The notes beneath the pieces are model-generated. The model worked only from the letters and a program-made list of their open reading frames with translations, was not told the origin of the DNA and ran no database searches. The position numbers were made by a program, and so were the translations under genes. Below are positions 4,690 to 52,548 of a DNA stretch of 64,000 nt, piece by piece. Within the stretch, counting starts at the first letter, position 1, and each line of letters opens with the position of its first letter. The DNA is from Eledone cirrhosa (taxonomy: Eukaryota): assembly GCA_964016885.1 (NCBI GenBank), contig CAXHJY010001169.1:1-64000 (forward strand), read 5' to 3'.

Positions 4690-4744
<55 letters not shown>

Positions 4745-4844
4745 GTATATATATATATGTATATATATATATGTATATACATATATATATATATGTATAT
4801 ATATATGTATATACATATATATATATATGTATATATATATATAG

Positions 4845-10092: not shown

Positions 10093-11158
<1,066 letters not shown>

Positions 11159-19953: not shown

Positions 19954-19995
19954 CGTTGCTGATGATAGCTAATAAGCTTGAAACTAGTACAGCGT
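19953..19995 (+). ncRNA. Type I hammerhead ribozyme (family C)
   Basis: ACGTTG-CTGATGA-T-AGCT(AATA)AGCT-T-GAAA-CTAG-TA-CAGCGT. Confidence 0.88.
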
Positions 19996-20372: not shown

Positions 20373-20415
20373 ACGTTGCTGATGATAGCTAATAAGCTTG
20401 AAACTAGTACAGCGT
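20373..20415 (+). ncRNA. Type I hammerhead ribozyme (family C, second copy, extended helix I)
   Basis: Identical core. Flanks GTTCAACA..CTGGCAGGAAGG / CCTTTGTCAG-TGTTGAAC extend helix I. Confidence 0.88.
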
Positions 20416-20681
20416 TCCTTTGTCAGTGTTGAACAAACGAGCAACGATGGTTGCTGGACACTACGGCTTAATACGGGATGTTTGTTTACAAACACACCGA
20501 GCATTATAATAAATGTTCGGTGAATCCATACGTACATATATATATGTGTGCATGTATGTATATACATATACATACTACTGTACGTCTGTATACATATATG
20601 TATGTACGTGTACATACTTATATTTAAGTAACAGCCGTACTAAGAGTGGGAAATGAAATTTCATTTCATTTTTCCTGTTTA

Positions 20682-23428: not shown

Positions 23429-23447
23429 ATATATTTATATATATATA

Positions 23448-23506
<59 letters not shown>

Positions 23507-23509
<3 letters not shown>

Positions 23510-24375: not shown

Positions 24376-26205
<1,830 letters not shown>

Positions 26206-26991
26206 ATATAAAGAAAAAGAGATGAAATCGAAAATGCAACTGGAGTCTTATTTTTTTAAAAATATATATATTTATTTGGTTCCTTTACCGGTTTCGCAGT
26301 TCTTCTGCTTTTCAAAAGTAGAGTTAAGATGGAGGGTTTGTGGTTTTTCTCACATCTGGTTGGTATCTGAATGTTACCTTTTTTATATGGAAAAAATGGC
26401 TCGAAATGCCAGGTTTTTCGAGAAGTAATTTGATTGGTTGGTCAATAATTACAATAAATTTCGCGCCAGTTCGCATTACAATAGTTCTTCAAATAAGATG
26501 GGGGGGGGGGGGGGGGGGGTTGTCACAGGTTGTATTTTCATATATGAGTGTTTGAATTTCTTTTTACTTGAAAAAAGGGGCTCACAAGGCTCTTTTTTTT
26601 GGTTATAAATGAAATTATGGCTGTCACGTGAACAAGTTTTCATTAAATTTTCGCACCCTTATTTGGAAATCCATTTTGTAGCTTTTTTAGAGAATTTTAT
26701 GATAAGTAAAAGTTAATGGTCAAGAGAAATGGGATGGGAGAATTGTTCTGGTTCAGTGAATATGGTTAGTTCGCTGGGGTGTCAGAATTCAGATTTTCTA
26801 TTGAATAAAGAAAGTAAAGATATGTATGTTTATTTGTGTGCTTGTGTGTGTGTGTGTGTGTGTGTGTTGTGTGTGTGTGTTTGAATTTCTTTTTACTTAA
26901 AAAAAAGGTGGCTGACGAAGGGTTTTTTTCAAATCACGTTTATTAAAAAAAGCCTTCGTGAGCCACCTTTTTTTTAAGTAAAAAGAAATTC

Positions 26992-27079
<88 letters not shown>

Positions 27080-27780
27080 AGCACACAAATAAACATACAT
27101 ATCTTTACTTTCTTTATTCAATAGAAAGCCTGAATTCTGACACCCCAGCGAACTAACCATGTTCACTGAACCAGAACAATTCCCCATCCCGTTTCTCTTG
27201 ACCATTATCTTTTACTTATCATAAAATTCTCTAAAAGGGCTACAAAATGGATTTCCAAATAAGGGCGCGAAAATTTAATGAAAACTTGTTCACGTGACAG
27301 CCATAATTTCATTTATAACCAAAAAAAAAAAAAAAAAAAAAAAGCCTTCGTGAGCCCCTTTTTTCAAGTAAAAAGAAATTCAAACACTCATATATGAAAA
27401 AACAACCTGTGACAACCGCCCCCCTCTTCTTTGAAGAACTATTGTAACGTGAACTGGCGCGAAATTTATTATAGTTATTGACCAACCAATCAAATTACTT
27501 CTCGAAAAACCTGGCATTTCGAGCCACTTTGTCCATATAAAACAAGTAACATTCAGAGACCAACTAGATGTGAGAAAACCACAGACCCTCCATCTCAACT
27601 CTACTTTTGAAAAGCAGAAGAACTGCGAAACCGGTAAAGGAACCAAATAAATATATATATTTAAAACAAATAAGACTCCAGTTGCATTTTTGATTTCATC
27701 TCTTTTTCTTTATACTTTCACTCGTGTAGGACACCTCGGTTATTTTTCAATTTGTAAAAAAAACCTCACTTTCTAATATT
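26206..27780. mobile_element. Head-to-head inverted pair of family D element (arms ~26206-26930 / 26945-27780) with internal (CA)n and a U3-A8 HHR
   Basis: Arms are reverse complements with many differences. + strand 27604-27639: CTT-TTGAAAA-GCAG(AAGAA)CTGC-GAAA-CCGG-TA-AAG, then AATAAA. Confidence 0.82.
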
Positions 27781-28440
<660 letters not shown>

Positions 28441-28443
<3 letters not shown>

Positions 28444-28649
28444 TTAGAAAGTGAGGTTTTTTTTTACAAAATGAAAAATAACCGAGGTGTCCTACACGAG
28501 TGGAAGTATAAAGAAAAAGGGATGAAATCGAAAATGCAACTGAAGTCTTATTTTTTTTTTTAAATATATATATTTATTTGGTTCCTTTACCGGTTTCGCA
28601 GTTCTTCTGCTTTTCAAAAGGTGAGTTGAGATGGAGGGTCTGTGGTTTT
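28441..28649 (-). mobile_element. Family D 3' terminal fragment with U3-A8 HHR (28584-28621), fused to the 310 bp array
   Basis: Reverse complement of ~27575-27780; helix I CCTT/AAGG. Confidence 0.8.
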
Positions 28650-28679
28650 ACAGAAATTTTACAGAATTTAGAAATTTTA

Positions 28680-31600
28680 CAGAAATTAGAAATTGGAATA
28701 AATGCTCTGAAATAGCGATATATATGTGAATATAGACATAGAATATTCGAAAATATTCTGTATGTTTATAATAAACATTTTGAAGACCTAATCGCTATAG
28801 AATAGAATACGTCACGTATTACAATTAGATTCTCGATAAAAGCAAGGGAAGTAATCTACGCGTTTCATTCTTGTTAGAAATCATCAGGACTACATATCCA
28901 GTGCTTTTATCGAGAATGACACAGCTAGAGACTTATAGAATACTTAGCTGTGTACAGGAACTGGTTTGAAAGAGCGGTTGCCGGTCCGGCAGAAATTAGA
29001 AATTGGAATAAATGCTCTGAAATAGCGATATATATGTGAATATAGACATAGAATATTCGAAAATATTCTGTATGTTTATAATAAACATTTTGAAGACCTA
29101 ATCGCTATAGAATAGAATACGTCACGTATTACAATTAGATTCTCGATAAAAGCAAGGGAAGTAATCTACGCGTTTCATTCTTGTTAGAAATCATCAGGAC
29201 TACATATCCAGTGCTTTTATCGAGAATGACACAGCTAGAGACTTATAGAATACTTAGCTGTGTACAGGAACTGGTTTGAAAGAGCGGTTGCCGGTCCGGC
29301 AGAAATTAGAAATTGGAATAAATGCTCTGAAATAGCGATATATATGTGAATATAGACATAGAATATTCGAAAATATTCTGTATGTTTATAATAAACATTT
29401 TGAAGACCTAATCGCTATAGAATAGAATACGTCACGTATTACAATTAGATTCTCGATAAAAGCAAGGGAAGTAATCTACGCGTTTCATTCTTGTTAGAAA
29501 TCATCAGGACTACATATCCAGTGCTTTTATCGAGAATGACACAGCTAGAGACTTATAGAATACTTAGCTGTGTACAGGAACTGGTTTGAAAGAGCGGTTG
29601 CCGGTCCGGCAGAAATTAGAAATTGGAATAAATGCTCTGAAATAGCGATATATATGTGAATATAGACATAGAATATTCGAAAATATTCTGTATGTTTATA
29701 ATAAACATTTTGAAGACCTAATCGCTATAGAATAGAATACGTCACGTATTACAATTAGATTCTCGATAAAAGCAAGGGAAGTAATCTACGCGTTTCATTC
29801 TTGTTAGAAATCATCAGGACTACATATCCAGTGCTTTTATCGAGAATGACACAGCTAGAGACTTATAGAATACTTAGCTGTGTACAGGAACTGGTTTGAA
29901 AGAGCGGTTGCCGGTCCGGCAGAAATTAGAAATTGGAATAAATGCTCTGAAATAGCGATATATATGTGAATATAGACATAGAATATTCGAAAATATTCTG
30001 TATGTTTATAATAAACATTTTGAAGACCTAATCGCTATAGAATAGAATACGTCACGTATTACAATTAGATTCTCGATAAAAGCAAGGGAAGTAATCTACG
30101 CGTTTCATTCTTGTTAGAAATCATCAGGACTACATATCCAGTGCTTTTATCGAGAATGACACAGCTAGAGACTTATAGAATACTTAGCTGTGTACAGGAA
30201 CTGGTTTGAAAGAGCGGTTGCCGGTCCGGCAGAAATTAGAAATTGGAATAAATGCTCTGAAATAGCGATATATATGTGAATATAGACATAGAATATTCGA
30301 AAATATTCTGTATGTTTATAATAAACATTTTGAAGACCTAATCGCTATAGAATAGAATACGTCACGTATTACAATTAGATTCTCGATAAAAGCAAGGGAA
30401 GTAATCTACGCGTTTCATTCTTGTTAGAAATCATCAGGACTACATATCCAGTGCTTTTATCGAGAATGACACAGCTAGAGACTTATAGAATACTTAGCTG
30501 TGTACAGGAACTGGTTTGAAAGAGCGGTTGCCGGTCCGGCAGAAATTAGAAATTGGAATAAATGCTCTGAAATAGCGATATATATGTGAATATAGACATA
30601 GAATATTCGAAAATATTCTGTATGTTTATAATAAACATTTTGAAGACCTAATCGCTATAGAATAGAATACGTCACGTATTACAATTAGATTCTCGATAAA
30701 AGCAAGGGAAGTAATCTACGCGTTTCATTCTTGTTAGAAATCATCAGGACTACATATCCAGTGCTTTTATCGAGAATGACACAGCTAGAGACTTATAGAA
30801 TACTTAGCTGTGTACAGGAACTGGTTTGAAAGAGCGGTTGCCGGTCCGGCAGAAATTAGAAATTGGAATAAATGCTCTGAAATAGCGATATATATGTGAA
30901 TATAGACATAGAATATTCGAAAATATTCTGTATGTTTATAATAAACATTTTGAAAACCTAATCGCTATAGAATAGAATACGTCACGTATTACAATTAGAT
31001 TCTCGATAAAAGCAAGGGAAGTAATCTAGGCGTTTCATTCTTGTTAGAAATCATCAGGACTACATATCCAGTGCTTTTATCGAGAATGACACAGCTAGAG
31101 ACTTATAGAATACTTAGCTGTGTACAGGAACTGGTTTGAAAGAGCGGTTGCCGGTCCGGCAGAAATTAGAAATTGGAATAAATGCTCTGAAATAGCGATA
31201 TATATGTGAATATAGACATAGAATATTCGAAAATATTCTGTATGTTTATAATAAACATTTTGAAGACCTAATCGCTATAGAATAGAATACGTCACGTATT
31301 ACAATTAGATTCTCGATAAAAGCAAGGGAAGTAATCTACGCGTTTCATTCTTGTTAGAAATCATCAGGACTACATATCCAGTGCTTTTATCGAGAATGAC
31401 ACAGCTAGAGACTTATAGAATACTTAGCTGTGTACAGGAACTGGTTTGAAAGAGCGGTTGCCGGTCCGGCAGAAATTAGAAATTGGAATAAATGCTCTGA
31501 AATAGCGATATATATGTGAATATAGACATAGAATATTCGAAAATATTCTGTATGTTTATAATAAACATTTTGAAGACCTAATCGCTATAGAATAGAATAC

Positions 31601-34600
31601 GTCACGTATTACAATTAGATTCTCGATAAAAGCAAGGGAAGTAATCTACGCGTTTCATTCTTGTTAGAAATCATCAGGACTACATATCCAGTGCTTTTAT
31701 CGAGAATGACACAGCTAGAGACTTATAGAATACTTAGCTGTGTACAGGAACTGGTTTGAAAGAGCGGTTGCCGGTCCGGCAGAAATTAGAAATTGGAATA
31801 AATGCTCTGAAATAGCGATATATATGTGAATATAGACATAGAATATTCGAAAATATTCTGTATGTTTATAATAAACATTTTGAAGACCTAATCGCTATAG
31901 AATAGAATACGTCACGTATTACAATTAGATTCTCGATAAAAGCAAGGGAAGTAATCTACGCGTTTCATTCTTGTTAGAAATCATCAGGACTACATATCCA
32001 GTGCTTTTATCGAGAATGACACAGCTAGAGACTTATAGAATACTTAGCTGTGTACAGGAACTGGTTTGAAAGAGCGGTTGCCGGTCCGGCAGAAATTAGA
32101 AATTGGAATAAATGCTCTGAAATAGCGATATATATGTGAATATAGACATAGAATATTCGAAAATATTCTGTATGTTTATAATAAACATTTTGAAGACCTA
32201 ATCGCTATAGAATAGAATACGTCACGTATTACAATTAGATTCTCGATAAAAGCAAGGGAAGTAATCTACGCGTTTCATTCTTGTTAGAAATCATCAGGAC
32301 TACATATCCAGTGCTTTTATCGAGAATGACACAGCTAGAGACTTATAGAATACTTAGCTGTGTACAGGAACTGGTTTGAAAGAGCGGTTGCCGGTCCGGC
32401 AGAAATTAGAAATTGGAATAAATGCTCTGAAATAGCGATATATATGTGAATATAGACATAGAATATTCGAAAATATTCTGTATGTTTATAATAAACATTT
32501 TGAAGACCTAATCGCTATAGAATAGAATACGTCACGTATTACAATTAGATTCTCGATAAAAGCAAGGGAAGTAATCTACGCGTTTCATTCTTGTTAGAAA
32601 TCATCAGGACTACATATCCAGTGCTTTTATCGAGAATGACACAGCTAGAGACTTATAGAATACTTAGCTGTGTACAGGAACTGGTTTGAAAGAGCGGTTG
32701 CCGGTCCGGCAGAAATTAGAAATTGGAATAAATGCTCTGAAATAGCGATATATATGTGAATATAGACATAGAATATTCGAAAATATTCTGTATGTTTATA
32801 ATAAACATTTTGAAGACCTAATCGCTATAGAATAGAATACGTCACGTATTACAATTAGATTCTCGATAAAAGCAAGGGAAGTAATCTACGCGTTTCATTC
32901 TTGTTAGAAATCATCAGGACTACATATCCAGTGCTTTTATCGAGAATGACACAGCTAGAGACTTATAGAATACTTAGCTGTGTACAGGAACTGGTTTGAA
33001 AGAGCGGTTGCCGGTCCGGCAGAAATTAGAAATTGGAATAAATGCTCTGAAATAGCGATATATATGTGAATATAGACATAGAATATTCGAAAATATTCTG
33101 TATGTTTATAATAAACATTTTGAAGACCTAATCGCTATAGAATAGAATACGTCACGTATTACAATTAGATTCTCGATAAAAGCAAGGGAAGTAATCTACG
33201 CGTTTCATTCTTGTTAGAAATCATCAGGACTACATATCCAGTGCTTTTATCGAGAATGACACAGCTAGAGACTTATAGAATACTTAGCTGTGTACAGGAA
33301 CTGGTTTGAAAGAGCGGTTGCCGGTCCGGCAGAAATTAGAAATTGGAATAAATGCTCTGAAATAGCGATATATATGTGAATATAGACATAGAATATTCGA
33401 AAATATTCTGTATGTTTATAATAAACATTTTGAAGACCTAATCGCTATAGAATAGAATACGTCACGTATTACAATTAGATTCTCGATAAAAGCAAGGGAA
33501 GTAATCTACGCGTTTCATTCTTGTTAGAAATCATCAGGACTACATATCCAGTGCTTTTATCGAGAATGACACAGCTAGAGACTTATAGAATACTTAGCTG
33601 TGTACAGGAACTGGTTTGAAAGAGCGGTTGCCGGTCCGGCAGAAATTAGAAATTGGAATAAATGCTCTGAAATAGCGATATATATGTGAATATAGACATA
33701 GAATATTCGAAAATATTCTGTATGTTTATAATAAACATTTTGAAGACCTAATCGCTATAGAATAGAATACGTCACGTATTACAATTAGATTCTCGATAAA
33801 AGCAAGGGAAGTAATCTACGCGTTTCATTCTTGTTAGAAATCATCAGGACTACATATCCAGTGCTTTTATCGAGAATGACACAGCTAGAGACTTATAGAA
33901 TACTTAGCTGTGTACAGGAACTGGTTTGAAAGAGCGGTTGCCGGTCCGGCAGAAATTAGAAATTGGAATAAATGCTCTGAAATAGCGATATATATGTGAA
34001 TATAGACATAGAATATTCGAAAATATTCTGTATGTTTATAATAAACATTTTGAAGACCTAATCGCTATAGAATAGAATACGTCACGTATTACAATTAGAT
34101 TCTCGATAAAAGCAAGGGAAGTAATCTACGCGTTTCATTCTTGTTAGAAATCATCAGGACTACATATCCAGTGCTTTTATCGAGAATGACACAGCTAGAG
34201 ACTTATAGAATACTTAGCTGTGTACAGGAACTGGTTTGAAAGAGCGGTTGCCGGTCCGGCAGAAATTAGAAATTGGAATAAATGCTCTGAAATAGCGATA
34301 TATATGTGAATATAGACATAGAATATTCGAAAATATTCTGTATGTTTATAATAAACATTTTGAAGACCTAATCGCTATAGAATAGAATACGTCACGTATT
34401 ACAATTAGATTCTCGATAAAAGCAAGGGAAGTAATCTACGCGTTTCATTCTTGTTAGAAATCATCAGGACTACATATCCAGTGCTTTTATCGAGAATGAC
34501 ACAGCTAGAGACTTATAGAATACTTAGCTGTGTACAGGAACTGGTTTGAAAGAGCGGTTGCCGGTCCGGCAGAAATTAGAAATTGGAATAAATGCTCTGA

Positions 34601-37249
34601 AATAGCGATATATATGTGAATATAGACATAGAATATTCGAAAATATTCTGTATGTTTATAATAAACATTTTGAAGACCTAATCGCTATAGAATAGAATAC
34701 GTCACGTATTACAATTAGATTCTCGATAAAAGCAAGGGAAGTAATCTACGCGTTTCATTCTTGTTAGAAATCATCAGGACTACATATCCAGTGCTTTTAT
34801 CGAGAATGACACAGCTAGAGACTTATAGAATACTTAGCTGTGTACAGGAACTGGTTTGAAAGAGCGGTTGCCGGTCCGGCAGAAATTAGAAATTGGAATA
34901 AATGCTCTGAAATAGCGATATATATGTGAATATAGACATAGAATATTCGAAAATATTCTGTATGTTTATAATAAACATTTTGAAGACCTAATCGCTATAG
35001 AATAGAATACGTCACGTATTACAATTAGATTCTCGATAAAAGCAAGGGAAGTAATCTACGCGTTTCATTCTTGTTAGAAATCATCAGGACTACATATCCA
35101 GTGCTTTTATCGAGAATGACACAGCTAGAGACTTATAGAATACTTAGCTGTGTACAGGAACTGGTTTGAAAGAGCGGTTGCCGGTCCGGCAGAAATTAGA
35201 AATTGGAATAAATGCTCTGAAATAGCGATATATATGTGAATATAGACATAGAATATTCGAAAATATTCTGTATGTTTATAATAAACATTTTGAAGACCTA
35301 ATCGCTATAGAATAGAATACGTCACGTATTACAATTAGATTCTCGATAAAAGCAAGGGAAGTAATCTACGCGTTTCATTCTTGTTAGAAATCATCAGGAC
35401 TACATATCCAGTGCTTTTATCGAGAATGACACAGCTAGAGACTTATAGAATACTTAGCTGTGTACAGGAACTGGTTTGAAAGAGCGGTTGCCGGTCCGGC
35501 AGAAATTAGAAATTGGAATAAATGCTCTGAAATAGCGATATATATGTGAATATAGACATAGAATATTCGAAAATATTCTGTATGTTTATAATAAACATTT
35601 TGAAGACCTAATCGCTATAGAATAGAATACGTCACGTATTACAATTAGATTCTCGATAAAAGCAAGGGAAGTAATCTACGCGTTTCATTCTTGTTAGAAA
35701 TCATCAGGACTACATATCCAGTGCTTTTATCGAGAATGACACAGCTAGAGACTTATAGAATACTTAGCTGTGTACAGGAACTGGTTTGAAAGAGCGGTTG
35801 CCGGTCCGGCAGAAATTAGAAATTGGAATAAATGCTCTGAAATAGCGATATATATGTGAATATAGACATAGAATATTCGAAAATATTCTGTATGTTTATA
35901 ATAAACATTTTGAAGACCTAATCGCTATAGAATAGAATACGTCACGTATTACAATTAGATTCTCGATAAAAGCAAGGGAAGTAATCTACGCGTTTCATTC
36001 TTGTTAGAAATCATCAGGACTACATATCCAGTGCTTTTATCGAGAATGACACAGCTAGAGACTTATAGAATACTTAGCTGTGTACAGGAACTGGTTTGAA
36101 AGAGCGGTTGCCGGTCCGGCAGAAATTAGAAATTGGAATAAATGCTCTGAAATAGCGATATATATGTGAATATAGACATAGAATATTCGAAAATATTCTG
36201 TATGTTTATAATAAACATTTTGAAGACCTAATCGCTATAGAATAGAATACGTCACGTATTACAATTAGATTCTCGATAAAAGCAAGGGAAGTAATCTACG
36301 CGTTTCATTCTTGTTAGAAATCATCAGGACTACATATCCAGTGCTTTTATCGAGAATGACACAGCTAGAGACTTATAGAATACTTAGCTGTGTACAGGAA
36401 CTGGTTTGAAAGAGCGGTTGCCGGTCCGGCAGAAATTAGAAATTGGAATAAATGCTCTGAAATAGCGATATATATGTGAATATAGACATAGAATATTCGA
36501 AAATATTCTGTATGTTTATAATAAACATTTTGAAGACCTAATCGCTATAGAATAGAATACGTCACGTATTACAATTAGATTCTCGATAAAAGCAAGGGAA
36601 GTAATCTACGCGTTTCATTCTTGTTAGAAATCATCAGGACTACATATCCAGTGCTTTTATCGAGAATGACACAGCTAGAGACTTATAGAATACTTAGCTG
36701 TGTACAGGAACTGGTTTGAAAGAGCGGTTGCCGGTCCGGCAGAAATTAGAAATTGGAATAAATGCTCTGAAATAGCGATATATATGTGAATATAGACATA
36801 GAATATTCGAAAATATTCTGTATGTTTATAATAAACATTTTGAAGACCTAATCGCTATAGAATAGAATACGTCACGTATTACAATTAGATTCTCGATAAA
36901 AGCAAGGGAAGTAATCTACGCGTTTCATTCTTGTTAGAAATCATCAGGACTACATATCCAGTGCTTTTATCGAGAATGACACAGCTAGAGACTTATAGAA
37001 TACTTAGCTGTGTACAGGAACTGGTTTGAAAGAGCGGTTGCCGGTCCGGCAGAAATTAGAAATTGGAATAAATGCTCTGAAATAGCGATATATATGTGAA
37101 TATAGACATAGAATATTCGAAAATATTCTGTATGTTTATAATAAACATTTTGAAGACCTAATCGCTATAGAATAGAATACGTCACGTATTACAATTAGAT
37201 TCTCGATAAAAGCAAGGGAAGTAATCTACGCGTTTCATTCTTGTTAGAA
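28680..37249 (-). repeat. 310 bp tandem array, left arm (27 full units + 199 bp); HHR on minus strand
   Basis: AGAAATTAGAAATTGG recurs at 28681, 28991 ... 37051. Only variants seen: 30955 G>A and 31029 C>G. Confidence 0.98.
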
Positions 37250-40200
37250 CAGAATATTTTCGAATATTCTATGTCTATATTCACATATATATCGCTATTT
37301 CAGAGCATTTATTCCAATTTCTAATTTCTGCCGGACCGGCAACCGCTCTTTCAAACCAGTTCCTGTACACAGCTAAGTATTCTATAAGTCTCTAGCTGTG
37401 TCATTCTCGATAAAAGCACTGGATATGTAGTCCTGATGATTTCTAACAAGAATGAAACGCGTAGATTACTTCCCTTGCTTTTATCGAGAATCTAATTGTA
37501 ATACGTGACGTATTCTATTCTATAGCGATTAGGTCTTCAAAATGTTTATTATAAACATACAGAATATTTTCGAATATTCTATGTCTATATTCACATATAT
37601 ATCGCTATTTCAGAGCATTTATTCCAATTTCTAATTTCTGCCGGACCGGCAACCGCTCTTTCAAACCAGTTCCTGTACACAGCTAAGTATTCTATAAGTC
37701 TCTAGCTGTGTCATTCTCGATAAAAGCACTGGATATGTAGTCCTGATGATTTCTAACAAGAATGAAACGCGTAGATTACTTCCCTTGCTTTTATCGAGAA
37801 TCTAATTGTAATACGTGACGTATTCTATTCTATAGCGATTAGGTCTTCAAAATGTTTATTATAAACATACAGAATATTTTCGAATATTCTATGTCTATAT
37901 TCACATATATATCGCTATTTCAGAGCATTTATTCCAATTTCTAATTTCTGCCGGACCGGCAACCGCTCTTTCAAACCAGTTCCTGTACACAGCTAAGTAT
38001 TCTATAAGTCTCTAGCTGTGTCATTCTCGATAAAAGCACTGGATATGTAGTCCTGATGATTTCTAACAAGAATGAAACGCGTAGATTACTTCCCTTGCTT
38101 TTATCGAGAATCTAATTGTAATACGTGACGTATTCTATTCTATAGCGATTAGGTCTTCAAAATGTTTATTATAAACATACAGAATATTTTCGAATATTCT
38201 ATGTCTATATTCACATATATATCGCTATTTCAGAGCATTTATTCCAATTTCTAATTTCTGCCGGACCGGCAACCGCTCTTTCAAACCAGTTCCTGTACAC
38301 AGCTAAGTATTCTATAAGTCTCTAGCTGTGTCATTCTCGATAAAAGCACTGGATATGTAGTCCTGATGATTTCTAACAAGAATGAAACGCGTAGATTACT
38401 TCCCTTGCTTTTATCGAGAATCTAATTGTAATACGTGACGTATTCTATTCTATAGCGATTAGGTCTTCAAAATGTTTATTATAAACATACAGAATATTTT
38501 CGAATATTCTATGTCTATATTCACATATATATCGCTATTTCAGAGCATTTATTCCAATTTCTAATTTCTGCCGGACCGGCAACCGCTCTTTCAAACCAGT
38601 TCCTGTACACAGCTAAGTATTCTATAAGTCTCTAGCTGTGTCATTCTCGATAAAAGCACTGGATATGTAGTCCTGATGATTTCTAACAAGAATGAAACGC
38701 GTAGATTACTTCCCTTGCTTTTATCGAGAATCTAATTGTAATACGTGACGTATTCTATTCTATAGCGATTAGGTCTTCAAAATGTTTATTATAAACATAC
38801 AGAATATTTTCGAATATTCTATGTCTATATTCACATATATATCGCTATTTCAGAGCATTTATTCCAATTTCTAATTTCTGCCGGACCGGCAACCGCTCTT
38901 TCAAACCAGTTCCTGTACACAGCTAAGTATTCTATAAGTCTCTAGCTGTGTCATTCTCGATAAAAGCACTGGATATGTAGTCCTGATGATTTCTAACAAG
39001 AATGAAACGCGTAGATTACTTCCCTTGCTTTTATCGAGAATCTAATTGTAATACGTGACGTATTCTATTCTATAGCGATTAGGTCTTCAAAATGTTTATT
39101 ATAAACATACAGAATATTTTCGAATATTCTATGTCTATATTCACATATATATCGCTATTTCAGAGCATTTATTCCAATTTCTAATTTCTGCCGGACCGGC
39201 AACCGCTCTTTCAAACCAGTTCCTGTACACAGCTAAGTATTCTATAAGTCTCTAGCTGTGTCATTCTCGATAAAAGCACTGGATATGTAGTCCTGATGAT
39301 TTCTAACAAGAATGAAACGCGTAGATTACTTCCCTTGCTTTTATCGAGAATCTAATTGTAATACGTGACGTATTCTATTCTATAGCGATTAGGTCTTCAA
39401 AATGTTTATTATAAACATACAGAATATTTTCGAATATTCTATGTCTATATTCACATATATATCGCTATTTCAGAGCATTTATTCCAATTTCTAATTTCTG
39501 CCGGACCGGCAACCGCTCTTTCAAACCAGTTCCTGTACACAGCTAAGTATTCTATAAGTCTCTAGCTGTGTCATTCTCGATAAAAGCACTGGATATGTAG
39601 TCCTGATGATTTCTAACAAGAATGAAACGCGTAGATTACTTCCCTTGCTTTTATCGAGAATCTAATTGTAATACGTGACGTATTCTATTCTATAGCGATT
39701 AGGTCTTCAAAATGTTTATTATAAACATACAGAATATTTTCGAATATTCTATGTCTATATTCACATATATATCGCTATTTCAGAGCATTTATTCCAATTT
39801 CTAATTTCTGCCGGACCGGCAACCGCTCTTTCAAACCAGTTCCTGTACACAGCTAAGTATTCTATAAGTCTCTAGCTGTGTCATTCTCGATAAAAGCACT
39901 GGATATGTAGTCCTGATGATTTCTAACAAGAATGAAACGCGTAGATTACTTCCCTTGCTTTTATCGAGAATCTAATTGTAATACGTGACGTATTCTATTC
40001 TATAGCGATTAGGTCTTCAAAATGTTTATTATAAACATACAGAATATTTTCGAATATTCTATGTCTATATTCACATATATATCGCTATTTCAGAGCATTT
40101 ATTCCAATTTCTAATTTCTGCCGGACCGGCAACCGCTCTTTCAAACCAGTTCCTGTACACAGCTAAGTATTCTATAAGTCTCTAGCTGTGTCATTCTCGA

Positions 40201-43200
40201 TAAAAGCACTGGATATGTAGTCCTGATGATTTCTAACAAGAATGAAACGCGTAGATTACTTCCCTTGCTTTTATCGAGAATCTAATTGTAATACGTGACG
40301 TATTCTATTCTATAGCGATTAGGTCTTCAAAATGTTTATTATAAACATACAGAATATTTTCGAATATTCTATGTCTATATTCACATATATATCGCTATTT
40401 CAGAGCATTTATTCCAATTTCTAATTTCTGCCGGACCGGCAACCGCTCTTTCAAACCAGTTCCTGTACACAGCTAAGTATTCTATAAGTCTCTAGCTGTG
40501 TCATTCTCGATAAAAGCACTGGATATGTAGTCCTGATGATTTCTAACAAGAATGAAACGCGTAGATTACTTCCCTTGCTTTTATCGAGAATCTAATTGTA
40601 ATACGTGACGTATTCTATTCTATAGCGATTAGGTCTTCAAAATGTTTATTATAAACATACAGAATATTTTCGAATATTCTATGTCTATATTCACATATAT
40701 ATCGCTATTTCAGAGCATTTATTCCAATTTCTAATTTCTGCCGGACCGGCAACCGCTCTTTCAAACCAGTTCCTGTACACAGCTAAGTATTCTATAAGTC
40801 TCTAGCTGTGTCATTCTCGATAAAAGCACTGGATATGTAGTCCTGATGATTTCTAACAAGAATGAAACGCGTAGATTACTTCCCTTGCTTTTATCGAGAA
40901 TCTAATTGTAATACGTGACGTATTCTATTCTATAGCGATTAGGTCTTCAAAATGTTTATTATAAACATACAGAATATTTTCGAATATTCTATGTCTATAT
41001 TCACATATATATCGCTATTTCAGAGCATTTATTCCAATTTCTAATTTCTGCCGGACCGGCAACCGCTCTTTCAAACCAGTTCCTGTACACAGCTAAGTAT
41101 TCTATAAGTCTCTAGCTGTGTCATTCTCGATAAAAGCACTGGATATGTAGTCCTGATGATTTCTAACAAGAATGAAACGCGTAGATTACTTCCCTTGCTT
41201 TTATCGAGAATCTAATTGTAATACGTGACGTATTCTATTCTATAGCGATTAGGTCTTCAAAATGTTTATTATAAACATACAGAATATTTTCGAATATTCT
41301 ATGTCTATATTCACATATATATCGCTATTTCAGAGCATTTATTCCAATTTCTAATTTCTGCCGGACCGGCAACCGCTCTTTCAAACCAGTTCCTGTACAC
41401 AGCTAAGTATTCTATAAGTCTCTAGCTGTGTCATTCTCGATAAAAGCACTGGATATGTAGTCCTGATGATTTCTAACAAGAATGAAACGCGTAGATTACT
41501 TCCCTTGCTTTTATCGAGAATCTAATTGTAATACGTGACGTATTCTATTCTATAGCGATTAGGTCTTCAAAATGTTTATTATAAACATACAGAATATTTT
41601 CGAATATTCTATGTCTATATTCACATATATATCGCTATTTCAGAGCATTTATTCCAATTTCTAATTTCTGCCGGACCGGCAACCGCTCTTTCAAACCAGT
41701 TCCTGTACACAGCTAAGTATTCTATAAGTCTCTAGCTGTGTCATTCTCGATAAAAGCACTGGATATGTAGTCCTGATGATTTCTAACAAGAATGAAACGC
41801 GTAGATTACTTCCCTTGCTTTTATCGAGAATCTAATTGTAATACGTGACGTATTCTATTCTATAGCGATTAGGTCTTCAAAATGTTTATTATAAACATAC
41901 AGAATATTTTCGAATATTCTATGTCTATATTCACATATATATCGCTATTTCAGAGCATTTATTCCAATTTCTAATTTCTGCCGGACCGGCAACCGCTCTT
42001 TCAAACCAGTTCCTGTACACAGCTAAGTATTCTATAAGTCTCTAGCTGTGTCATTCTCGATAAAAGCACTGGATATGTAGTCCTGATGATTTCTAACAAG
42101 AATGAAACGCGTAGATTACTTCCCTTGCTTTTATCGAGAATCTAATTGTAATACGTGACGTATTCTATTCTATAGCGATTAGGTCTTCAAAATGTTTATT
42201 ATAAACATACAGAATATTTTCGAATATTCTATGTCTATATTCACATATATATCGCTATTTCAGAGCATTTATTCCAATTTCTAATTTCTGCCGGACCGGC
42301 AACCGCTCTTTCAAACCAGTTCCTGTACACAGCTAAGTATTCTATAAGTCTCTAGCTGTGTCATTCTCGATAAAAGCACTGGATATGTAGTCCTGATGAT
42401 TTCTAACAAGAATGAAACGCGTAGATTACTTCCCTTGCTTTTATCGAGAATCTAATTGTAATACGTGACGTATTCTATTCTATAGCGATTAGGTCTTCAA
42501 AATGTTTATTATAAACATACAGAATATTTTCGAATATTCTATGTCTATATTCACATATATATCGCTATTTCAGAGCATTTATTCCAATTTCTAATTTCTG
42601 CCGGACCGGCAACCGCTCTTTCAAACCAGTTCCTGTACACAGCTAAGTATTCTATAAGTCTCTAGCTGTGTCATTCTCGATAAAAGCACTGGATATGTAG
42701 TCCTGATGATTTCTAACAAGAATGAAACGCGTAGATTACTTCCCTTGCTTTTATCGAGAATCTAATTGTAATACGTGACGTATTCTATTCTATAGCGATT
42801 AGGTCTTCAAAATGTTTATTATAAACATACAGAATATTTTCGAATATTCTATGTCTATATTCACATATATATCGCTATTTCAGAGCATTTATTCCAATTT
42901 CTAATTTCTGCCGGACCGGCAACCGCTCTTTCAAACCAGTTCCTGTACACAGCTAAGTATTCTATAAGTCTCTAGCTGTGTCATTCTCGATAAAAGCACT
43001 GGATATGTAGTCCTGATGATTTCTAACAAGAATGAAACGCGTAGATTACTTCCCTTGCTTTTATCGAGAATCTAATTGTAATACGTGACGTATTCTATTC
43101 TATAGCGATTAGGTCTTCAAAATGTTTATTATAAACATACAGAATATTTTCGAATATTCTATGTCTATATTCACATATATATCGCTATTTCAGAGCATTT

Positions 43201-46200
43201 ATTCCAATTTCTAATTTCTGCCGGACCGGCAACCGCTCTTTCAAACCAGTTCCTGTACACAGCTAAGTATTCTATAAGTCTCTAGCTGTGTCATTCTCGA
43301 TAAAAGCACTGGATATGTAGTCCTGATGATTTCTAACAAGAATGAAACGCGTAGATTACTTCCCTTGCTTTTATCGAGAATCTAATTGTAATACGTGACG
43401 TATTCTATTCTATAGCGATTAGGTCTTCAAAATGTTTATTATAAACATACAGAATATTTTCGAATATTCTATGTCTATATTCACATATATATCGCTATTT
43501 CAGAGCATTTATTCCAATTTCTAATTTCTGCCGGACCGGCAACCGCTCTTTCAAACCAGTTCCTGTACACAGCTAAGTATTCTATAAGTCTCTAGCTGTG
43601 TCATTCTCGATAAAAGCACTGGATATGTAGTCCTGATGATTTCTAACAAGAATGAAACGCGTAGATTACTTCCCTTGCTTTTATCGAGAATCTAATTGTA
43701 ATACGTGACGTATTCTATTCTATAGCGATTAGGTCTTCAAAATGTTTATTATAAACATACAGAATATTTTCGAATATTCTATGTCTATATTCACATATAT
43801 ATCGCTATTTCAGAGCATTTATTCCAATTTCTAATTTCTGCCGGACCGGCAACCGCTCTTTCAAACCAGTTCCTGTACACAGCTAAGTATTCTATAAGTC
43901 TCTAGCTGTGTCATTCTCGATAAAAGCACTGGATATGTAGTCCTGATGATTTCTAACAAGAATGAAACGCGTAGATTACTTCCCTTGCTTTTATCGAGAA
44001 TCTAATTGTAATACGTGACGTATTCTATTCTATAGCGATTAGGTCTTCAAAATGTTTATTATAAACATACAGAATATTTTCGAATATTCTATGTCTATAT
44101 TCACATATATATCGCTATTTCAGAGCATTTATTCCAATTTCTAATTTCTGCCGGACCGGCAACCGCTCTTTCAAACCAGTTCCTGTACACAGCTAAGTAT
44201 TCTATAAGTCTCTAGCTGTGTCATTCTCGATAAAAGCACTGGATATGTAGTCCTGATGATTTCTAACAAGAATGAAACGCGTAGATTACTTCCCTTGCTT
44301 TTATCGAGAATCTAATTGTAATACGTGACGTATTCTATTCTATAGCGATTAGGTCTTCAAAATGTTTATTATAAACATACAGAATATTTTCGAATATTCT
44401 ATGTCTATATTCACATATATATCGCTATTTCAGAGCATTTATTCCAATTTCTAATTTCTGCCGGACCGGCAACCGCTCTTTCAAACCAGTTCCTGTACAC
44501 AGCTAAGTATTCTATAAGTCTCTAGCTGTGTCATTCTCGATAAAAGCACTGGATATGTAGTCCTGATGATTTCTAACAAGAATGAAACGCGTAGATTACT
44601 TCCCTTGCTTTTATCGAGAATCTAATTGTAATACGTGACGTATTCTATTCTATAGCGATTAGGTCTTCAAAATGTTTATTATAAACATACAGAATATTTT
44701 CGAATATTCTATGTCTATATTCACATATATATCGCTATTTCAGAGCATTTATTCCAATTTCTAATTTCTGCCGGACCGGCAACCGCTCTTTCAAACCAGT
44801 TCCTGTACACAGCTAAGTATTCTATAAGTCTCTAGCTGTGTCATTCTCGATAAAAGCACTGGATATGTAGTCCTGATGATTTCTAACAAGAATGAAACGC
44901 GTAGATTACTTCCCTTGCTTTTATCGAGAATCTAATTGTAATACGTGACGTATTCTATTCTATAGCGATTAGGTCTTCAAAATGTTTATTATAAACATAC
45001 AGAATATTTTCGAATATTCTATGTCTATATTCACATATATATCGCTATTTCAGAGCATTTATTCCAATTTCTAATTTCTGCCGGACCGGCAACCGCTCTT
45101 TCAAACCAGTTCCTGTACACAGCTAAGTATTCTATAAGTCTCTAGCTGTGTCATTCTCGATAAAAGCACTGGATATGTAGTCCTGATGATTTCTAACAAG
45201 AATGAAACGCGTAGATTACTTCCCTTGCTTTTATCGAGAATCTAATTGTAATACGTGACGTATTCTATTCTATAGCGATTAGGTCTTCAAAATGTTTATT
45301 ATAAACATACAGAATATTTTCGAATATTCTATGTCTATATTCACATATATATCGCTATTTCAGAGCATTTATTCCAATTTCTAATTTCTGCCGGACCGGC
45401 AACCGCTCTTTCAAACCAGTTCCTGTACACAGCTAAGTATTCTATAAGTCTCTAGCTGTGTCATTCTCGATAAAAGCACTGGATATGTAGTCCTGATGAT
45501 TTCTAACAAGAATGAAACGCGTAGATTACTTCCCTTGCTTTTATCGAGAATCTAATTGTAATACGTGACGTATTCTATTCTATAGCGATTAGGTCTTCAA
45601 AATGTTTATTATAAACATACAGAATATTTTCGAATATTCTATGTCTATATTCACATATATATCGCTATTTCAGAGCATTTATTCCAATTTCTAATTTCTG
45701 CCGGACCGGCAACCGCTCTTTCAAACCAGTTCCTGTACACAGCTAAGTATTCTATAAGTCTCTAGCTGTGTCATTCTCGATAAAAGCACTGGATATGTAG
45801 TCCTGATGATTTCTAACAAGAATGAAACGCGTAGATTACTTCCCTTGCTTTTATCGAGAATCTAATTGTAATACGTGACGTATTCTATTCTATAGCGATT
45901 AGGTCTTCAAAATGTTTATTATAAACATACAGAATATTTTCGAATATTCTATGTCTATATTCACATATATATCGCTATTTCAGAGCATTTATTCCAATTT
46001 CTAATTTCTGCCGGACCGGCAACCGCTCTTTCAAACCAGTTCCTGTACACAGCTAAGTATTCTATAAGTCTCTAGCTGTGTCATTCTCGATAAAAGCACT
46101 GGATATGTAGTCCTGATGATTTCTAACAAGAATGAAACGCGTAGATTACTTCCCTTGCTTTTATCGAGGATCTAATTGTAATACGTGACGTATTCTATTC

Positions 46201-46930
46201 TATAGCGATTAGGTCTTCAAAATGTTTATTATAAACATACAGAATATTTTCGAATATTCTATGTCTATATTCACATATATATCGCTATTTCAGAGCATTT
46301 ATTCCAATTTCTAATTTCTGCCGGACCGGCAACCGCTCTTTCAAACCAGTTCCTGTACACAGCTAAGTATTCTATAAGTCTCTAGCTGTGTCATTCTCGA
46401 TAAAAGCACTGGATATGTAGTCCTGATGATTTCTAACAAGAATGAAACGCGTAGATTACTTCCCTTGCTTTTATCGAGAATCTAATTGTAATACGTGACG
46501 TATTCTATTCTATAGCGATTAGGTCTTCAAAATGTTTATTATAAACATACAGAATATTTTCGAATATTCTATGTCTATATTCACATATATATCGCTATTT
46601 CAGAGCATTTATTCCAATTTCTAATTTCTGCCGGACCGGCAACCGCTCTTTCAAACCAGTTCCTGTACACAGCTAAGTATTCTATAAGTCTCTAGCTGTG
46701 TCATTCTCGATAAAAGCACTGGATATGTAGTCCTGATGATTTCTAACAAGAATGAAACGCGTAGATTACTTCCCTTGCTTTTATCGAGAATCTAATTGTA
46801 ATACGTGACGTATTCTATTCTATAGCGATTAGGTCTTCAAAATGTTTATTATAAACATACAGAATATTTTCGAATATTCTATGTCTATATTCACATATAT
46901 ATCGCTATTTCAGAGCATTTATTCCAATTT
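37250..46930 (+). repeat. 310 bp tandem array, right arm, inverted (31 full units + 71 bp); HHR on plus strand
   Basis: CAGAATATTTTCG recurs at 37250 ... 46860 and is the reverse complement of the left-arm unit. Only variant seen: 46169 A>G. Confidence 0.98.
37403..37491 (+). ncRNA. Type I hammerhead ribozyme in each 310 bp unit (representative; ~58 complete copies)
   Basis: GTAGTC-CTGATGA-T-TTCT(AACA)AGAA-T-GAAA-CGCG-TA-GATTAC with palindromic ACGCGT helix III. Helix I is extended by a perfect 16 bp ATTCTCGATAAAAGCA/TGCTTTTATCGAGAAT stem. Predicted cut after 37463. Confidence 0.88.
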
Positions 46931-46963
46931 ATATATATATATATTTATATATATATATATATG

Positions 46964-47033
<70 letters not shown>

Positions 47034-47180
47034 AGGATTAAAATACTGGAGCGTATTGGTGTTAAACACCCTCTTCGTATTATAGAAATGACAGTAAAAG
47101 GTATAGCTCAATGTAATTAAACAGAGCCGAAGAATTATGAAAATAAAACAAAGAAGCCTTCAATACATCAAAAGTCTTTA

Positions 47181-47225
47181 TTAGCCAACAATGTTTCGTC
47201 CTACTAAGGACTCATCAGGGCAATC
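47181..47225 (-). ncRNA. Type I hammerhead ribozyme of the Naiad-like PLE
   Basis: TTGCC-CTGATGA-GTCCT(TAGT)AGGAC-GAAA-CATTG-TT-GGCTAATAAA. Confidence 0.85.
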
Positions 47226-48897
47226 AAAACCACAAGAAGTACTATCGGCCAATACAAGCCGAAAACTCCGAAGAATATGGAGTGTACATACACTAAAGTA
47301 TTGGAAGATTATGGGTAAAAATATATAATATAAATCACTAAGGGGTGGATAACATTTTGAACCATATTACAAATATAGTCCAAAGCAAAAAAACTAGAGC
47401 TAAACAAAGGTGGTTATATAGAGCGGGAATTATGGTACTATATATAATACAATATAATATAATATAATATACTTGTAACAATATTAAAATTAAAATTAAA
47501 ATTAAAAGGCACAATATGCATATGTATATATGTACGCACACGTACGCACATATAGATATACATCAATACACATTTCCATCATTAACAGCACAAATTAAAC
47601 CTTATTAAGAGTTTAAATATAAATAAGCATAATAGGAATAAAAATAATAATACGTATATCTAATATACAGTATAACATGAAGTAATGAAATGATTAAAAG
47701 TAACACATATAATATATAATAAACTATATAATTATATAATATATAATATAATATAATAGATAATCTCCGGTTAATTTACACAAACAATATAGATGTCACA
47801 ATAATACTATAATAATAATATAATAATATATAATATATAATGGCATGTAAGTTAACAAATCAATTCATATAGAGTTACAGAGTAGGTGAGAAAAAAATAT
47901 AAATTGTACAATACCCAAAATTATGATGGTACAAAAATATAAACATCTTACATGATATATAAAATTTAACATATCATAATGGTACATAAAATCATCGGTA
48001 AGTAATAAGGATCAATAGTACAATAACAACTTCAATATAAAATAATGAACATAATATAATATATAATTACTTATAATTACAAGGTTGGTAAACAGACACA
48101 TATGTGAATGAGTGAATAAGGGCCAGACAGAAAATACTATGCACAGTAGTATTAATAAATAAATAAATAAAATCAACCGGAAATTAAAAAACAAAAACAA
48201 AAGTATTTACTTAGGTCTCACATGCAGTTAAGTAAAAACTTAGGAAACAACCCAGATAAATGACTAGAAAACCCTATTTGATAAATTAATATTGAAAATA
48301 TTTAAAATACCTAATAAGGCAATACAATATTAGCTATGGTTTAAGTAATCAAAATTCTTAAACATTAATATTTCACTATAAATATATATAGAAAGGAATG
48401 AAATATTCTACTATCATTTACATAACGATATCTAAAAAACTGACTTAAGCAGAATTATGGTAGGCTAATAGGGACAGAAAAAAAGAAATGTATAGGGGAA
48501 ACAAAGGAGCATAAAATCATAATCAATATACTGTATTATATAATAGAAAGGAGCATAAAAGAGGGGGGATATTAAATATAATCATAATATATTTGAAGGG
48601 GTTGGCAATAAGTTTATGTGTGCATGGGGAGGGGGGGGGGGGTGTTATCCAAAGAAGAATCCAAATAAAATAAAATAAAATGAAATAAAATAAAATAATA
48701 TAAAATATATAATCAGATATATACTCATAAGGTGTTAATAGTGAAAATTTAATGTGTAAGATAGATATGGTATAGTAGCCAAAAGATTATGAGAGCTAGA
48801 ATAAAAAGTTGTCAAAAACCAATGATAATAATGATGATAATAATGGTGGTAAACAAAAAGAACCTAAACTAAAAAAATAAGTAATGGAATATATCAG

Positions 48898-50661
48898 CTA
48901 ATGGATACAATTTACACTACTAGAACCTTTAGGTTTATAATAAAAGTAAGAATTAGAAATAGCGTGGGGGCAAGAAGAGAATATCTCAGACTTTCTATTA
49001 AGTAAGGATTCACTAGAGAAAATTATAGAGTGTGTCTCGAGGATACAGAGATTACAAAATTTAGTATGTGTAGAAAGGTTATTAGAGCGTGCTACTAAAC
49101 GCCAATTAAGGCTATATGGTATATTAGCCCCCTTAAGATCCCAGATATAGTGTGCTAAAGAAGTAGAATTCTTAAACTTAACATGTTTGAAATTAGAGAT
49201 ATGAGAATTAAACCTAGTCTTAAAAGTGTTAGATGTAGAGCCTATATAAGTTCTATTAGAGGAATTAGTTATAACTACGCAAGCATAGACGATGTTCTTA
49301 GAGAGGCAGTTACCGTTTAAAGGGCAGTTAGCACTCACTCTACAGTTACACTTCCGGGTGCTATTGATTGGCTGAAGTAGTGATGCATTACACGTAGGAT
49401 TACTATTAGATAAGGTCTGCTCTGGTGGTAAGGCATTTGCAGATCTGTTCAGACTAGTAGTATGTAGAGAGGAGTATCCATCCCTAATTTTCCTATTGTT
49501 AGTGCTAGCTAAATGAGAACTAATATTAGGGGTGGTAGAGAATAAAAGTTTAATAACATTTTTATTAAAAATACTATGGTATTTATGAGAAGGGGGGAAA
49601 TTTTTCTCTAATATAGAAAAGAAAGACCTAGGGATATTAATTAATACTTCCTGATTATATGGCGGGTTAAAATAAGTATTTAGTCTCCTTCCATTTTTAT
49701 CCTTTCCGACTCTACCATTATCTAATATCCCATTATTAAGACTAGGGTTATTACAAGGATTAGTTAAAACCGCATTATTAGAATCAGCCAAAATTCCATT
49801 AAGTCACTTTCTGTTTCTACTTCTAGTAGATCTGCTGCTGTCTGGAATCCTATTAAAAGGATTAGGGCAAATAATAGGATCAGTAGAAACAACATTATTA
49901 GAATTAGATCTAGCAAAATCATCACCAATGAGTGAGCGCTCAGAGGGTTCGACTTGATTCCTAGAGGTATTATACTCCCTATTACGAGTCCGGTGGGTTA
50001 ACTTATGGATGGGTTCAGATACACCTATGTAATTTCTACGATTATTATGCTTCCTACTCCCATTCATGGCCATGTTATGGGATATTATGTTATTATTATT
50101 ATAAGTAAGCGGAGACTTTCTAAGGTTACTATTATTATAATGTATTTTACTAGAGTAACCGGAATTAGCTAGGGCATTATTATAGTACTCCGCATGTTCA
50201 TTAAATGTTCCTACGTCCTTAGAGAGTGTAGAAATCCTATTAGATACACCCTTAATTATAGAGCTTATCATAGATTTGGGGTGGTTAGCATTGGGACTAA
50301 CATAACAAAGTATTTCATTAGGCTTATCGAAGGGTTTAAAACTATTAGTGACCAAGTCCAAAGTCACATCTAAAAAGTTGACCGCTCTATCGTTTCTATC
50401 TATCGTGATCGAAAGGTTATAGCTTTTAAAAAACTTATAAAGCTTCTTCTTATTATGCTCGACATTGTTGGTGCTAGAGTTAATAACAAACAATGCATCA
50501 TCACGATATAGTCCGCCATTAAGGTGCGGAAAGGTAACATATAGTTCATTTAGGAGGAACAACCCAACAAGATCAGTTACCTGGGCCGAATCACTCGAAC
50601 CCATTGTAACGTCGAAATTGTTGGGCGTGTTTTTACGGGTCCAAAATGTGTCCTCAAAATT
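48898..50661 (-). pseudogene. PLE RT C-terminal half + expanded linker + GIY-YIG endonuclease; one in-frame TGA at 49804-49806
   Basis: [92 protein letters not shown]. The two listed ORFs are in the same frame. Confidence 0.92.

Positions 50662-50869: not shown

Positions 50870-52548
<1,679 letters not shown>

What the first reader, a model, noticed from the sequence alone, without database searches (positions are those of the whole stretch)
28680..46930. 18 kb near-invariant 310 bp array in which every unit is a hammerhead-ribozyme RNA (retrozyme-like circular RNA locus)
Seen: ~59 units, ~58 complete type I HHRs (CUGAUGA/GAAA, GUA triplet, palindromic ACGCGU helix III, long helix I with an internal loop), no ORF, and only three substitutions noticed. 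The rest of the unit is also structured (AGAATATT-TTCG-AATATTCT, TGCCG/CGGCA, CACAGCTA/TAGCTGTG, AATACGT/ACGTATT, ATAGCGAT/ATCGCTAT). Known: metazoan non-LTR retrozymes are short tandem repeats with type I HHRs processed into monomeric linear and circular RNAs, and minimal HHRs with palindromic helix III can cleave as dimers. Inference: this is not an ordinary satellite but a very long, very young multimer of a 310 nt self-cleaving circular RNA mobilised by the neighbouring PLEs.
Basis: partly seen in the sequence, partly recalled or inferred. Interest (0 to 1): 0.92.

Follow-up and report, generated by a model that had tools for sequence, protein, structure and literature searches.

The report
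Two-armed ribozyme retroelement insertion
This 18-kb repeat is one insertion of a small hammerhead-ribozyme retroelement, laid down as two back-to-back arrays whose ends and mutations suggest that a Penelope-type reverse transcriptase copied one circular RNA many times round from both sides of a DNA cut, a mechanism proposed before but without such direct genomic traces.

Summary
The 310-bp array is real (58.9 units, 58 hammerhead cores, 3 substitutions), but it is not one head-to-tail run. It is two inverted arms (28680-37249 minus, 37249-46930 plus) between (AT)n tracts. It belongs to a family with at least 1,245 insertions. In 65 loci, all 55 two-arm ones run minus-then-plus, and 49 of 53 complete ones end at two fixed unit positions about 35-40 nt apart, one per arm: the known Penelope-like-element (PLE) 'inverted copy plus tail' signature. 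Variants are either in every unit of both arms or in at most 30% of units, never between; 37 loci carry a variant fixed in both arms and none is discordant. Fixed variants spare the sense-strand fold (2/26 break a pair versus 22/61 others). Best reading: a non-LTR retrozyme whose arrays are born whole, by double target-primed rolling-circle reverse transcription of one monomer circle. Not shown: transcription, cleavage, the circle itself, the partner PLE (two neighbouring families share no sequence with the unit). The hammerhead has a U10.1-U11.1 mismatch and misses Rfam's threshold. This locus is about twice the next longest, so its length may include later expansion or assembly error.

The parts
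27776..28444 (.). (AT)n tract, left target side
28445..28649 (-). 205-bp end fragment of another dispersed repeat (X), 94% like 27575-27775 inverted; lies between the (AT)n and the array (template switch or older insertion used as target)
28650..28679 (-). stutter of short re-copies of the unit's A-site region (phases about 170-177), read as abortive starts of reverse transcription (inference)
28680..37249 (-). left arm, 27.65 units, 27 hammerhead cores; outer (3') end at unit phase 177, inner end at phase 288 (phase 1 = base after the GUA triplet)
37132..37249 (.). centre: 1-nt overlap of the arms at 37249; 117-bp non-palindromic spacer between about 8.45-kb inverted repeats
37249..46930 (+). 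right arm, 31.23 units, 31 hammerhead cores; inner end at phase 96, outer (3') end at phase 167 running straight into (AT)n
37403..37491 (+). example type I hammerhead: extended helix I, CUGAUGA 37433-37439, helix II with U10.1.U11.1 mismatch plus 4 bp, GAAA 37454-37457, palindromic ACGCGU helix III, predicted cut after 37463
37589..37602 (+). site B (phases 126-139): the family's second insertion end; not used as an end at this locus
37628..37640 (+). site A (phases 165-177): the family's first insertion end, in an unpaired pyrimidine-rich loop
30955..31029 (-). two single-unit substitutions 74 bp apart (phases 72 and 308)
46169..46169 (+). third single-unit substitution (phase 26)
46931..47033 (.). 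(AT)n tract, right target side
47034..50660 (-). neighbouring 5'-truncated PLE (RT and GIY-YIG parts, minimal hammerhead at 47180-47224); young family, but not shown to be the partner

Best explanation
The unit is a non-LTR retrozyme, a non-autonomous passenger of a Penelope-like element. Inferred cycle: an array is transcribed; tandem hammerheads (probably as dimers through the palindromic helix III) cut out 310-nt monomers; a host ligase closes them; a PLE RT-endonuclease, probably a dimer, binds the circle at the B/A region, cuts both strands of an (AT)n tract, and uses both 3' ends as primers, one starting at site A and the other at site B. Each RT rolls round the same circle for a random number of turns; the two cDNAs are then joined end to end at 0-8 nt of overlap or a short filler. 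The product is two outward-pointing arrays of one sequence. Shown here: geometry, end positions, target, haplotype sharing, structure-sparing variation. Inferred: transcription, cleavage, ligation, the circle, the enzyme. This locus is the longest seen and is atypical in having both ends of A type, with a stutter and a foreign fragment on the left.
For: Geometry: 55 of 55 two-arm loci minus-then-plus among 65 examined; 49 of 53 complete ones have one A and one B end; in the 10 loci taken without regard to ends, 8 have two arms and all 8 are A/B; 53 of 62 listed B ends pair with an inward-facing, opposite-strand A end. Both primed strands are antisense, so the template has the ribozyme polarity. 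A-B spacing matches the 30-40-bp PLE tail (PMC8557442) and the two internal RT start sites, with both strands cut and extended, shown for an anole PLE (PMC11167929). 15-nt target duplication at L034. One-unit bottleneck: 27 substitution haplotypes in 64 loci; 37 two-arm loci with a variant fixed in both arms, 0 discordant; variant frequencies 61 at 0.3 or less, 0 between, 62 at 1.0. No end in the template: 498 crossings of the cut site without an indel listed there, 0 of 104 inner ends within 3 nt of it. RNA-level constraint: 2 of 26 fixed variants break a pair versus 22 of 61 others (p 0.008); A>G:T>C 11:3 versus 7:14 (p 0.015). Ribozyme: fixed changes fall at N7, loop 2, helix I and 10.1 (U to A, restoring an A-U pair, in 14 loci); genome-wide G8 mutants 1 and G12 mutants 6, all isolated units, against 3,045 N7 variants largely in whole arrays; related families show C3-G8 and U3-A8 cores.
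Against: No RNA data. Hammerhead below Rfam threshold with U10.1.U11.1; 8 of 9 predicted Xenopus retrozymes did not cleave in vitro (10.64898/2026.07.22.740005). In the anole PLE the hammerhead was dispensable and uncleaved linear RNA was the main substrate. The absence of whole arrays with G8 or G12 changes is weak alone (my rough expectation is about 0.5 such events per G site). 0 of 104 inner ends at the cut site compares with only about 2 expected. No partner PLE found. This locus (58.9 units) lies far outside the others (median 8, maximum 26.7 of 53) and lacks a B end.
Confidence: 0.7

Rival explanations
1. Same double priming by a PLE, but on an uncleaved linear multimer transcript; the hammerhead is a passenger or acts elsewhere.
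For: Uncleaved RNA was the main substrate in vitro for the anole PLE; the mirrored variant in L057; homogeneous parents would give homogeneous daughters.
Against: A linear template cannot give a daughter longer than its parent, nor fix a new variant in all units of both arms; 27 haplotypes in 64 loci with no intermediate frequencies need a one-unit bottleneck followed by regrowth; only 1 mirrored case among about 60 non-fixed variants.
Confidence: 0.12
2. One-unit template but not a covalent RNA circle: repeated precise template jumps on the cleaved linear monomer, or a circularised cDNA.
For: Explains haplotype sharing equally; the stutter at 28650-28679 and mixed-template insertions show that this RT re-primes and switches.
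Against: 498 crossings of the cut site without an indel listed there, whereas the true joints carry overlaps, fillers and duplications; a double-stranded DNA circle would not fix the minus-then-plus order.
Confidence: 0.09
3. Short inverted insertion followed by satellite-type growth (unequal crossover, conversion), as proposed in the 2026 preprint. For the family this is unlikely; for the extra length of this one locus it is plausible (about 0.3).
For: 7-unit duplication in L036; this locus is a length outlier on a 143-kb contig full of repeats.
Against: No variants at intermediate frequency, and both inverted arms share each haplotype; arms of under one unit lie beside arms of 5-9 units; the three variants here are unduplicated.
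Confidence: 0.07
4. Assembly or library artefact (fold-back chimera, inflated copy number).
For: Small contig; near-perfect repeat; the locus itself could not be checked against long reads.
Against: Same geometry with fixed A/B ends, different joints and private haplotypes at dozens of loci on a 443-Mb contig; inner ends of the two arms are unrelated (6 of 54 within 10 nt, 3.7 expected, p 0.16), unlike fold-backs; three public runs assemble the same unit as a 340-nt contig, i.e. 310 plus overlap. The unit count alone could still be off (about 0.15).
Confidence: 0.02

Closest known systems
Metazoan non-LTR retrozymes (Cervera and de la Pena 2020, PMC7229834; Li, Clavereau and Pollet, bioRxiv 10.64898/2026.07.22.740005)
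   Same: About 300-bp, low-GC, non-coding tandem unit with a type I hammerhead and weak palindromic helix III; long arrays are known (62-mers in coral, 180 and 300 units in axolotl and a beetle); circle-to-tandem-cDNA and PLE partnership are proposed there.
   Different: Neither text describes two inverted arms, two fixed start sites or haplotype sharing ('inverted' 0 hits in the first, only in a reference title in the second). The preprint leans to local amplification and unequal crossover; the data here point to arrays born whole.
Endonuclease-positive Penelope-like elements (Craig et al. 2021, PMC8557442; Arkhipova et al. 2013, PMC3846280; Frangieh et al. 2024, PMC11167929)
   Same: Inverted 5'-truncated copy, 30-40-bp tail at one end only, (TA)n targets, partial tandems, two internal RT start sites, both strands extended; non-autonomous multicopy derivatives (MRC1) are mentioned.
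   Different: No ORF; both arms are many units long; inner ends are independent, not the palindromic snap-back joints that led to the 2013 self-priming model; no homologous autonomous element was found among the families tested.
LINE-1 twin priming (recalled, not looked up in a paper here)
   Same: Both target strands prime on one RNA and give an inverted 5' part joined at microhomology.
   Different: Here it is the rule rather than a minority, both starts are fixed and internal, there is no poly(A), and each arm exceeds one template length.
Natural hammerheads with U10.1-U11.1 (Perreault et al. 2011, PMC3088659)
   Same: Helix II may begin with a U-U mismatch, stated there to be the best-tolerated mismatch (passage).
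   Different: Activity of this sequence is untested.

Membership tests
non-LTR retrozyme | short tandem unit with a type I hammerhead in each unit | tested here: met
   310 bp, 58 cores in 58.9 units
non-LTR retrozyme | no coding capacity, GC under 50% | tested here: met
   longest frame 59 codons; GC 0.34
non-LTR retrozyme | dispersed at many loci, co-occurring with PLEs | tested here: met
   1,245 A-ends and 703 B-ends by exact pattern; young PLE families with long open frames
non-LTR retrozyme | target duplication longer than 4 bp where present | tested here: inconclusive
   15 nt at L034; elsewhere and at this locus hidden by (AT)n
non-LTR retrozyme | no LTR, primer-binding site or polypurine tract | not tested
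   no LTR in the anatomy; PBS and PPT not searched
non-LTR retrozyme | transcribed, self-cleaved, accumulates as linear and circular monomers | not testable with these tools
   no RNA holder listed; indirect support only
type I hammerhead | core C3 U4 G5 A6 N7 G8 A9, G12 A13 A14 A15.1, U16.1 H17 with helices I-III | tested here: met
   helix III 2 bp alone, 6 bp as a dimer (duplex -9.5 kcal/mol)
type I hammerhead | 10.1-11.1 base pair | tested here: not met
   U.U in the window; A-U in 14 other loci; U.U is a described natural variant
type I hammerhead | Rfam gathering score | tested here: not met
   0 hits; 19.2 bits against 52 for HH9
PLE-type insertion | inverted 5'-truncated copy head to head | tested here: met
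   55 of 55 two-arm loci
PLE-type insertion | 30-40-bp tail at one end only | tested here: met
   family: 49 of 53; this locus is one of the exceptions (A/A')
PLE-type insertion | AT-rich or (TA)n target | tested here: met
autonomous PLE | RT plus GIY-YIG ORF | tested here: not met
   no ORF
derivative of a named PLE family | sequence homology to an autonomous element's pseudo-LTR | tested here: inconclusive
   none to the two Hydra-like families fetched or to the window's Neptune-like copy; other families not sampled
ordinary satellite DNA | variants spreading among neighbouring units, intermediate frequencies | tested here: not met
   one 7-unit duplication in L036

The most novel reading that the evidence does not exclude
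One PLE dimer holds one 310-nt circular ribozyme RNA and rolls round it in two simultaneous reverse transcriptions from the two strands of a single cut, here for 27 and 31 turns (18 kb from one small RNA). The family then behaves like a viroid-style RNA lineage, selected at every cycle for fold and ribozyme and possibly A-to-I edited, with each generation archived as a clonal array. This would also explain the inverted-plus-tail structure of PLEs generally as two-subunit, two-site priming.
Probability: 0.4. Interest if true: 0.88.

Novelty: new variant of a known kind. Interest (0 to 1): 0.74.

Why it matters
How animal retrozymes are copied into genomes, what PLE hammerheads are for, and how PLEs make their inverted and tailed insertions are stated as open in the papers read. 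A young family with over a thousand insertions records template strand, start sites, processivity and template identity at each locus. It separates the circle model from the unequal-crossover model and gives a defined 310-nt substrate with mapped start sites for the existing in vitro PLE assay.

Tried and rejected
Rfam at gathering score: nothing. DNA search of the own genome with the unit: nothing, as common words are skipped; patterns were used instead. Sequencing runs: no RNA holder listed, no evidence either way on expression. Partner search: PLE fragments against 60 loci, unit against 50 and 6 PLE loci: hits were retrozyme-family copies lying nearby, not PLE ends. Snap-back self-priming: inner ends unrelated and B arms are as long as A arms. 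Arm lengths are not significantly correlated (rho 0.21, p 0.14) and fit an exponential poorly (p 0.03) in a sample capped at about 6 kb. Earlier scan notes: none by sequence or in this genome. A genome-wide count of the 10.1 A variant was not obtained.

Full report
OBSERVATION. The 310-bp period is exact over 28680-46930 apart from a break near 37,000. Tandem Repeats Finder splits it into 28680-37249 (27.6 copies) and 37249-46930 (31.2 copies), whose units are reverse complements. CUGAUGA occurs 27 times on the minus strand of the left arm and 31 times on the plus strand of the right arm, so the ribozyme strands point outwards from a joint at 37249. There are three substitutions, each in one unit. 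With phase 1 as the base after the GUA at 37463, the left arm runs from phase 288 (inner) to 177 (outer) and the right from 96 to 167. The right end runs into (AT)n. The left end passes through a 30-bp stutter and 205 bp of another repeat before (AT)n.

THE RIBOZYME. All core nucleotides are present; helix I has 6 bp, internal loops and a 16-bp extension; helix III is the palindrome ACGCGU, able to form 6 bp only between two copies. Helix II opens with U.U. Rfam gives no hit at threshold and 19.2 bits for HH9. Perreault 2011 (PMC3088659, passages) reports natural U10.1-U11.1 hammerheads. A second family in the window has the same U.U, palindromic helix III and GUA with a different helix II. 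Relatives sharing the A-site motif (3,893 matches) carry C3-G8 or U3-A8 cores, a covariation described for PLE hammerheads (PMC4209133, first quarter read). Activity is untested.

THE FAMILY. A 31-nt core pattern has 4,587 exact matches in the 3.0-Gb genome; exact end patterns give 1,245 A ends and 703 B ends. I examined 65 loci: the window and 64 on contig C1, since listings show only the first places (10 from the core list, 34 chosen by an A end, 20 by a B end). Fifty-five have two arms, all minus-then-plus; 9 show one arm (3 of them cut by my stretch or by N); 1 is complex. Of 53 complete two-arm loci, 49 have one end at A (phases 157-177, mostly 165-172) and the other at B (126-139). The exceptions are the window, two loci with small rearrangements at A, and one with an N gap. 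Choosing by one end does not fix the other, and the 8 two-arm loci of the unselected 10 are all A/B. From coordinates alone, 53 of 62 B ends pair with an inward-facing A end; one likely A/A pair was seen. Inner ends are spread round the unit (Rayleigh p 0.26); joints mostly show 0-8 nt overlap or short fillers, one a 272-bp insert.

WHAT MADE THE ENDS. Craig 2021 (PMC8557442, passages) describes PLE insertions with an inverted 5'-truncated copy and a 30-40-bp tail at one end, (TA)n targets, and calls the mechanism undefined. Frangieh 2024 (PMC11167929, parts 1-2 of 4 read) shows a PLE protein, predicted dimeric, cutting and extending both strands of AT-rich DNA and starting at two internal RNA sites that bound the tail. 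The A/B pattern matches this. Because both primed strands are antisense, the template is single-stranded with the ribozyme polarity (inference).

WHAT THE TEMPLATE WAS. Across about 200 kb of arms, substitutions at positions covered four or more times are either rare (61 at 0.3 or less) or fixed (62); none lie between. There are 27 haplotypes in 64 loci (L125 left out for an N gap); 37 two-arm loci carry a variant fixed in both arms and none is discordant. Each insertion therefore passed through one unit of sequence and regrew. The cut site is crossed 498 times with no indel listed at it, and no inner end lies within 3 nt of it. A covalent monomer circle explains this most simply, as proposed without such evidence in PMC7229834 (discussion and passages read) and PMC7761336 (passages).

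SELECTION AS RNA. Of 26 distinct fixed substitutions 2 break a predicted pair of the circular sense fold, one of them the U-to-A change that restores the 10.1-11.1 pair; of 61 non-fixed ones 22 do (p 0.008). A>G outnumbers T>C 11:3 among fixed and 7:14 among non-fixed variants (p 0.015), as expected from G-U tolerance or A-to-I editing (end artefacts of L044, L134 and L136 and the singletons of L125 were left out, partial variants counted once, indels not scored). Genome-wide, G8 is changed in 1 unit and G12 in 6 isolated units, N7 in 3,045; this fits selection on catalysis but is weak alone, since N7 counts come from few founders.

PARTNER. Not found. The adjacent PLE family is young (150 scored matches at 93-100% identity) and also makes two-armed inserts, but with ends about 100 nt apart and no similarity to the unit; a second family with 713-codon frames shows none either.

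THIS LOCUS. It carries the haplotype commonest in my sample (18 of 64) and found in three public runs. It is the longest seen: 58.9 units against a median of 8 and a maximum of 26.7 among 53. One long event, later expansion and assembly inflation all remain open. Its left end lacks B; the foreign fragment and stutter suggest a template switch or use of an older insert as target.

WHAT IS KNOWN. The element class, long arrays and the PLE link are in print; the 2026 preprint (parts 1-3 of 5 read plus term search; supplements closed) argues from distribution and phylogeny and favours local amplification. Seven paper searches found no description of two-armed retrozyme insertions or of the haplotype test; subscription papers and supplements were not seen. 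Arkhipova 2013 (PMC3846280, passages) explains head-to-head PLE repeats by self-priming, which does not fit independent inner ends. An unchecked scan note from another genome (e1-7881736) reports similar architecture with a tRNA-like unit.

VERDICT. A real, new retrozyme family whose insertions give unusually direct, though indirect-by-nature, genomic evidence for PLE-driven double rolling-circle reverse transcription. New variant of a known kind; interest 0.74.

Noticed in passing
window 19642-20680: Apparent two-template insertion between (AT)n tracts: one minus-strand unit of a related 312-316-nt family (U3-A8 hammerhead, same A end) joined at 19953 to 1.7 plus-strand units of an unrelated 420-nt hammerhead repeat.
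   Followed up: partly
window 19959, 20379, 55507: 420-nt repeat family with hammerhead CUGAUGA-U-AGCU-loop-AGCU-U-GAAA-CUAG-UA: also U10.1.U11.1, palindromic helix III and GUA; common elsewhere in the genome.
   Followed up: partly
window 21882-25438, 51006-51298, 54149: A further short hammerhead repeat family with long helix II and AUAUAU helix III, repeatedly as inverted pairs around (AT)n.
   Followed up: no
window 26204-27775: Repeat X as an inverted pair between (AT)n tracts with ends 58 nt apart; no clear hammerhead found.
   Followed up: partly
L058:1547-1939, L091-L120: A radiation of about 310-316-nt relatives sharing ATATYGCTATTTCAGAGC and the A end, with different hammerheads (GUC triplet, 3-4 bp helix III); 3,893 motif matches.
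   Followed up: partly
window 3362-5953, 8639-10146 with 7148-7175, 47034-50660: Three PLE families in the window (two Hydra-like by recalled motifs, one Neptune-like); the two searched have many copies with long open frames.
   Followed up: partly
L037:1999-2270: 272 bp of unrelated GC-richer sequence captured at the central joint of a two-arm insertion.
   Followed up: no
all arms: Inner ends are absent from phases 305-17 and 177-202 among 104 ends; noticed after the fact, unexplained.
   Followed up: no
window 28680-45700: About 8.45-kb near-perfect inverted repeats with a 117-bp spacer; a read-through transcript would form a very long double-stranded RNA (inference).
   Followed up: no
public runs: The unit's words occur in runs under 17 coded organism labels; two of four laid look like trace DNA; the rest untested.
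   Followed up: partly
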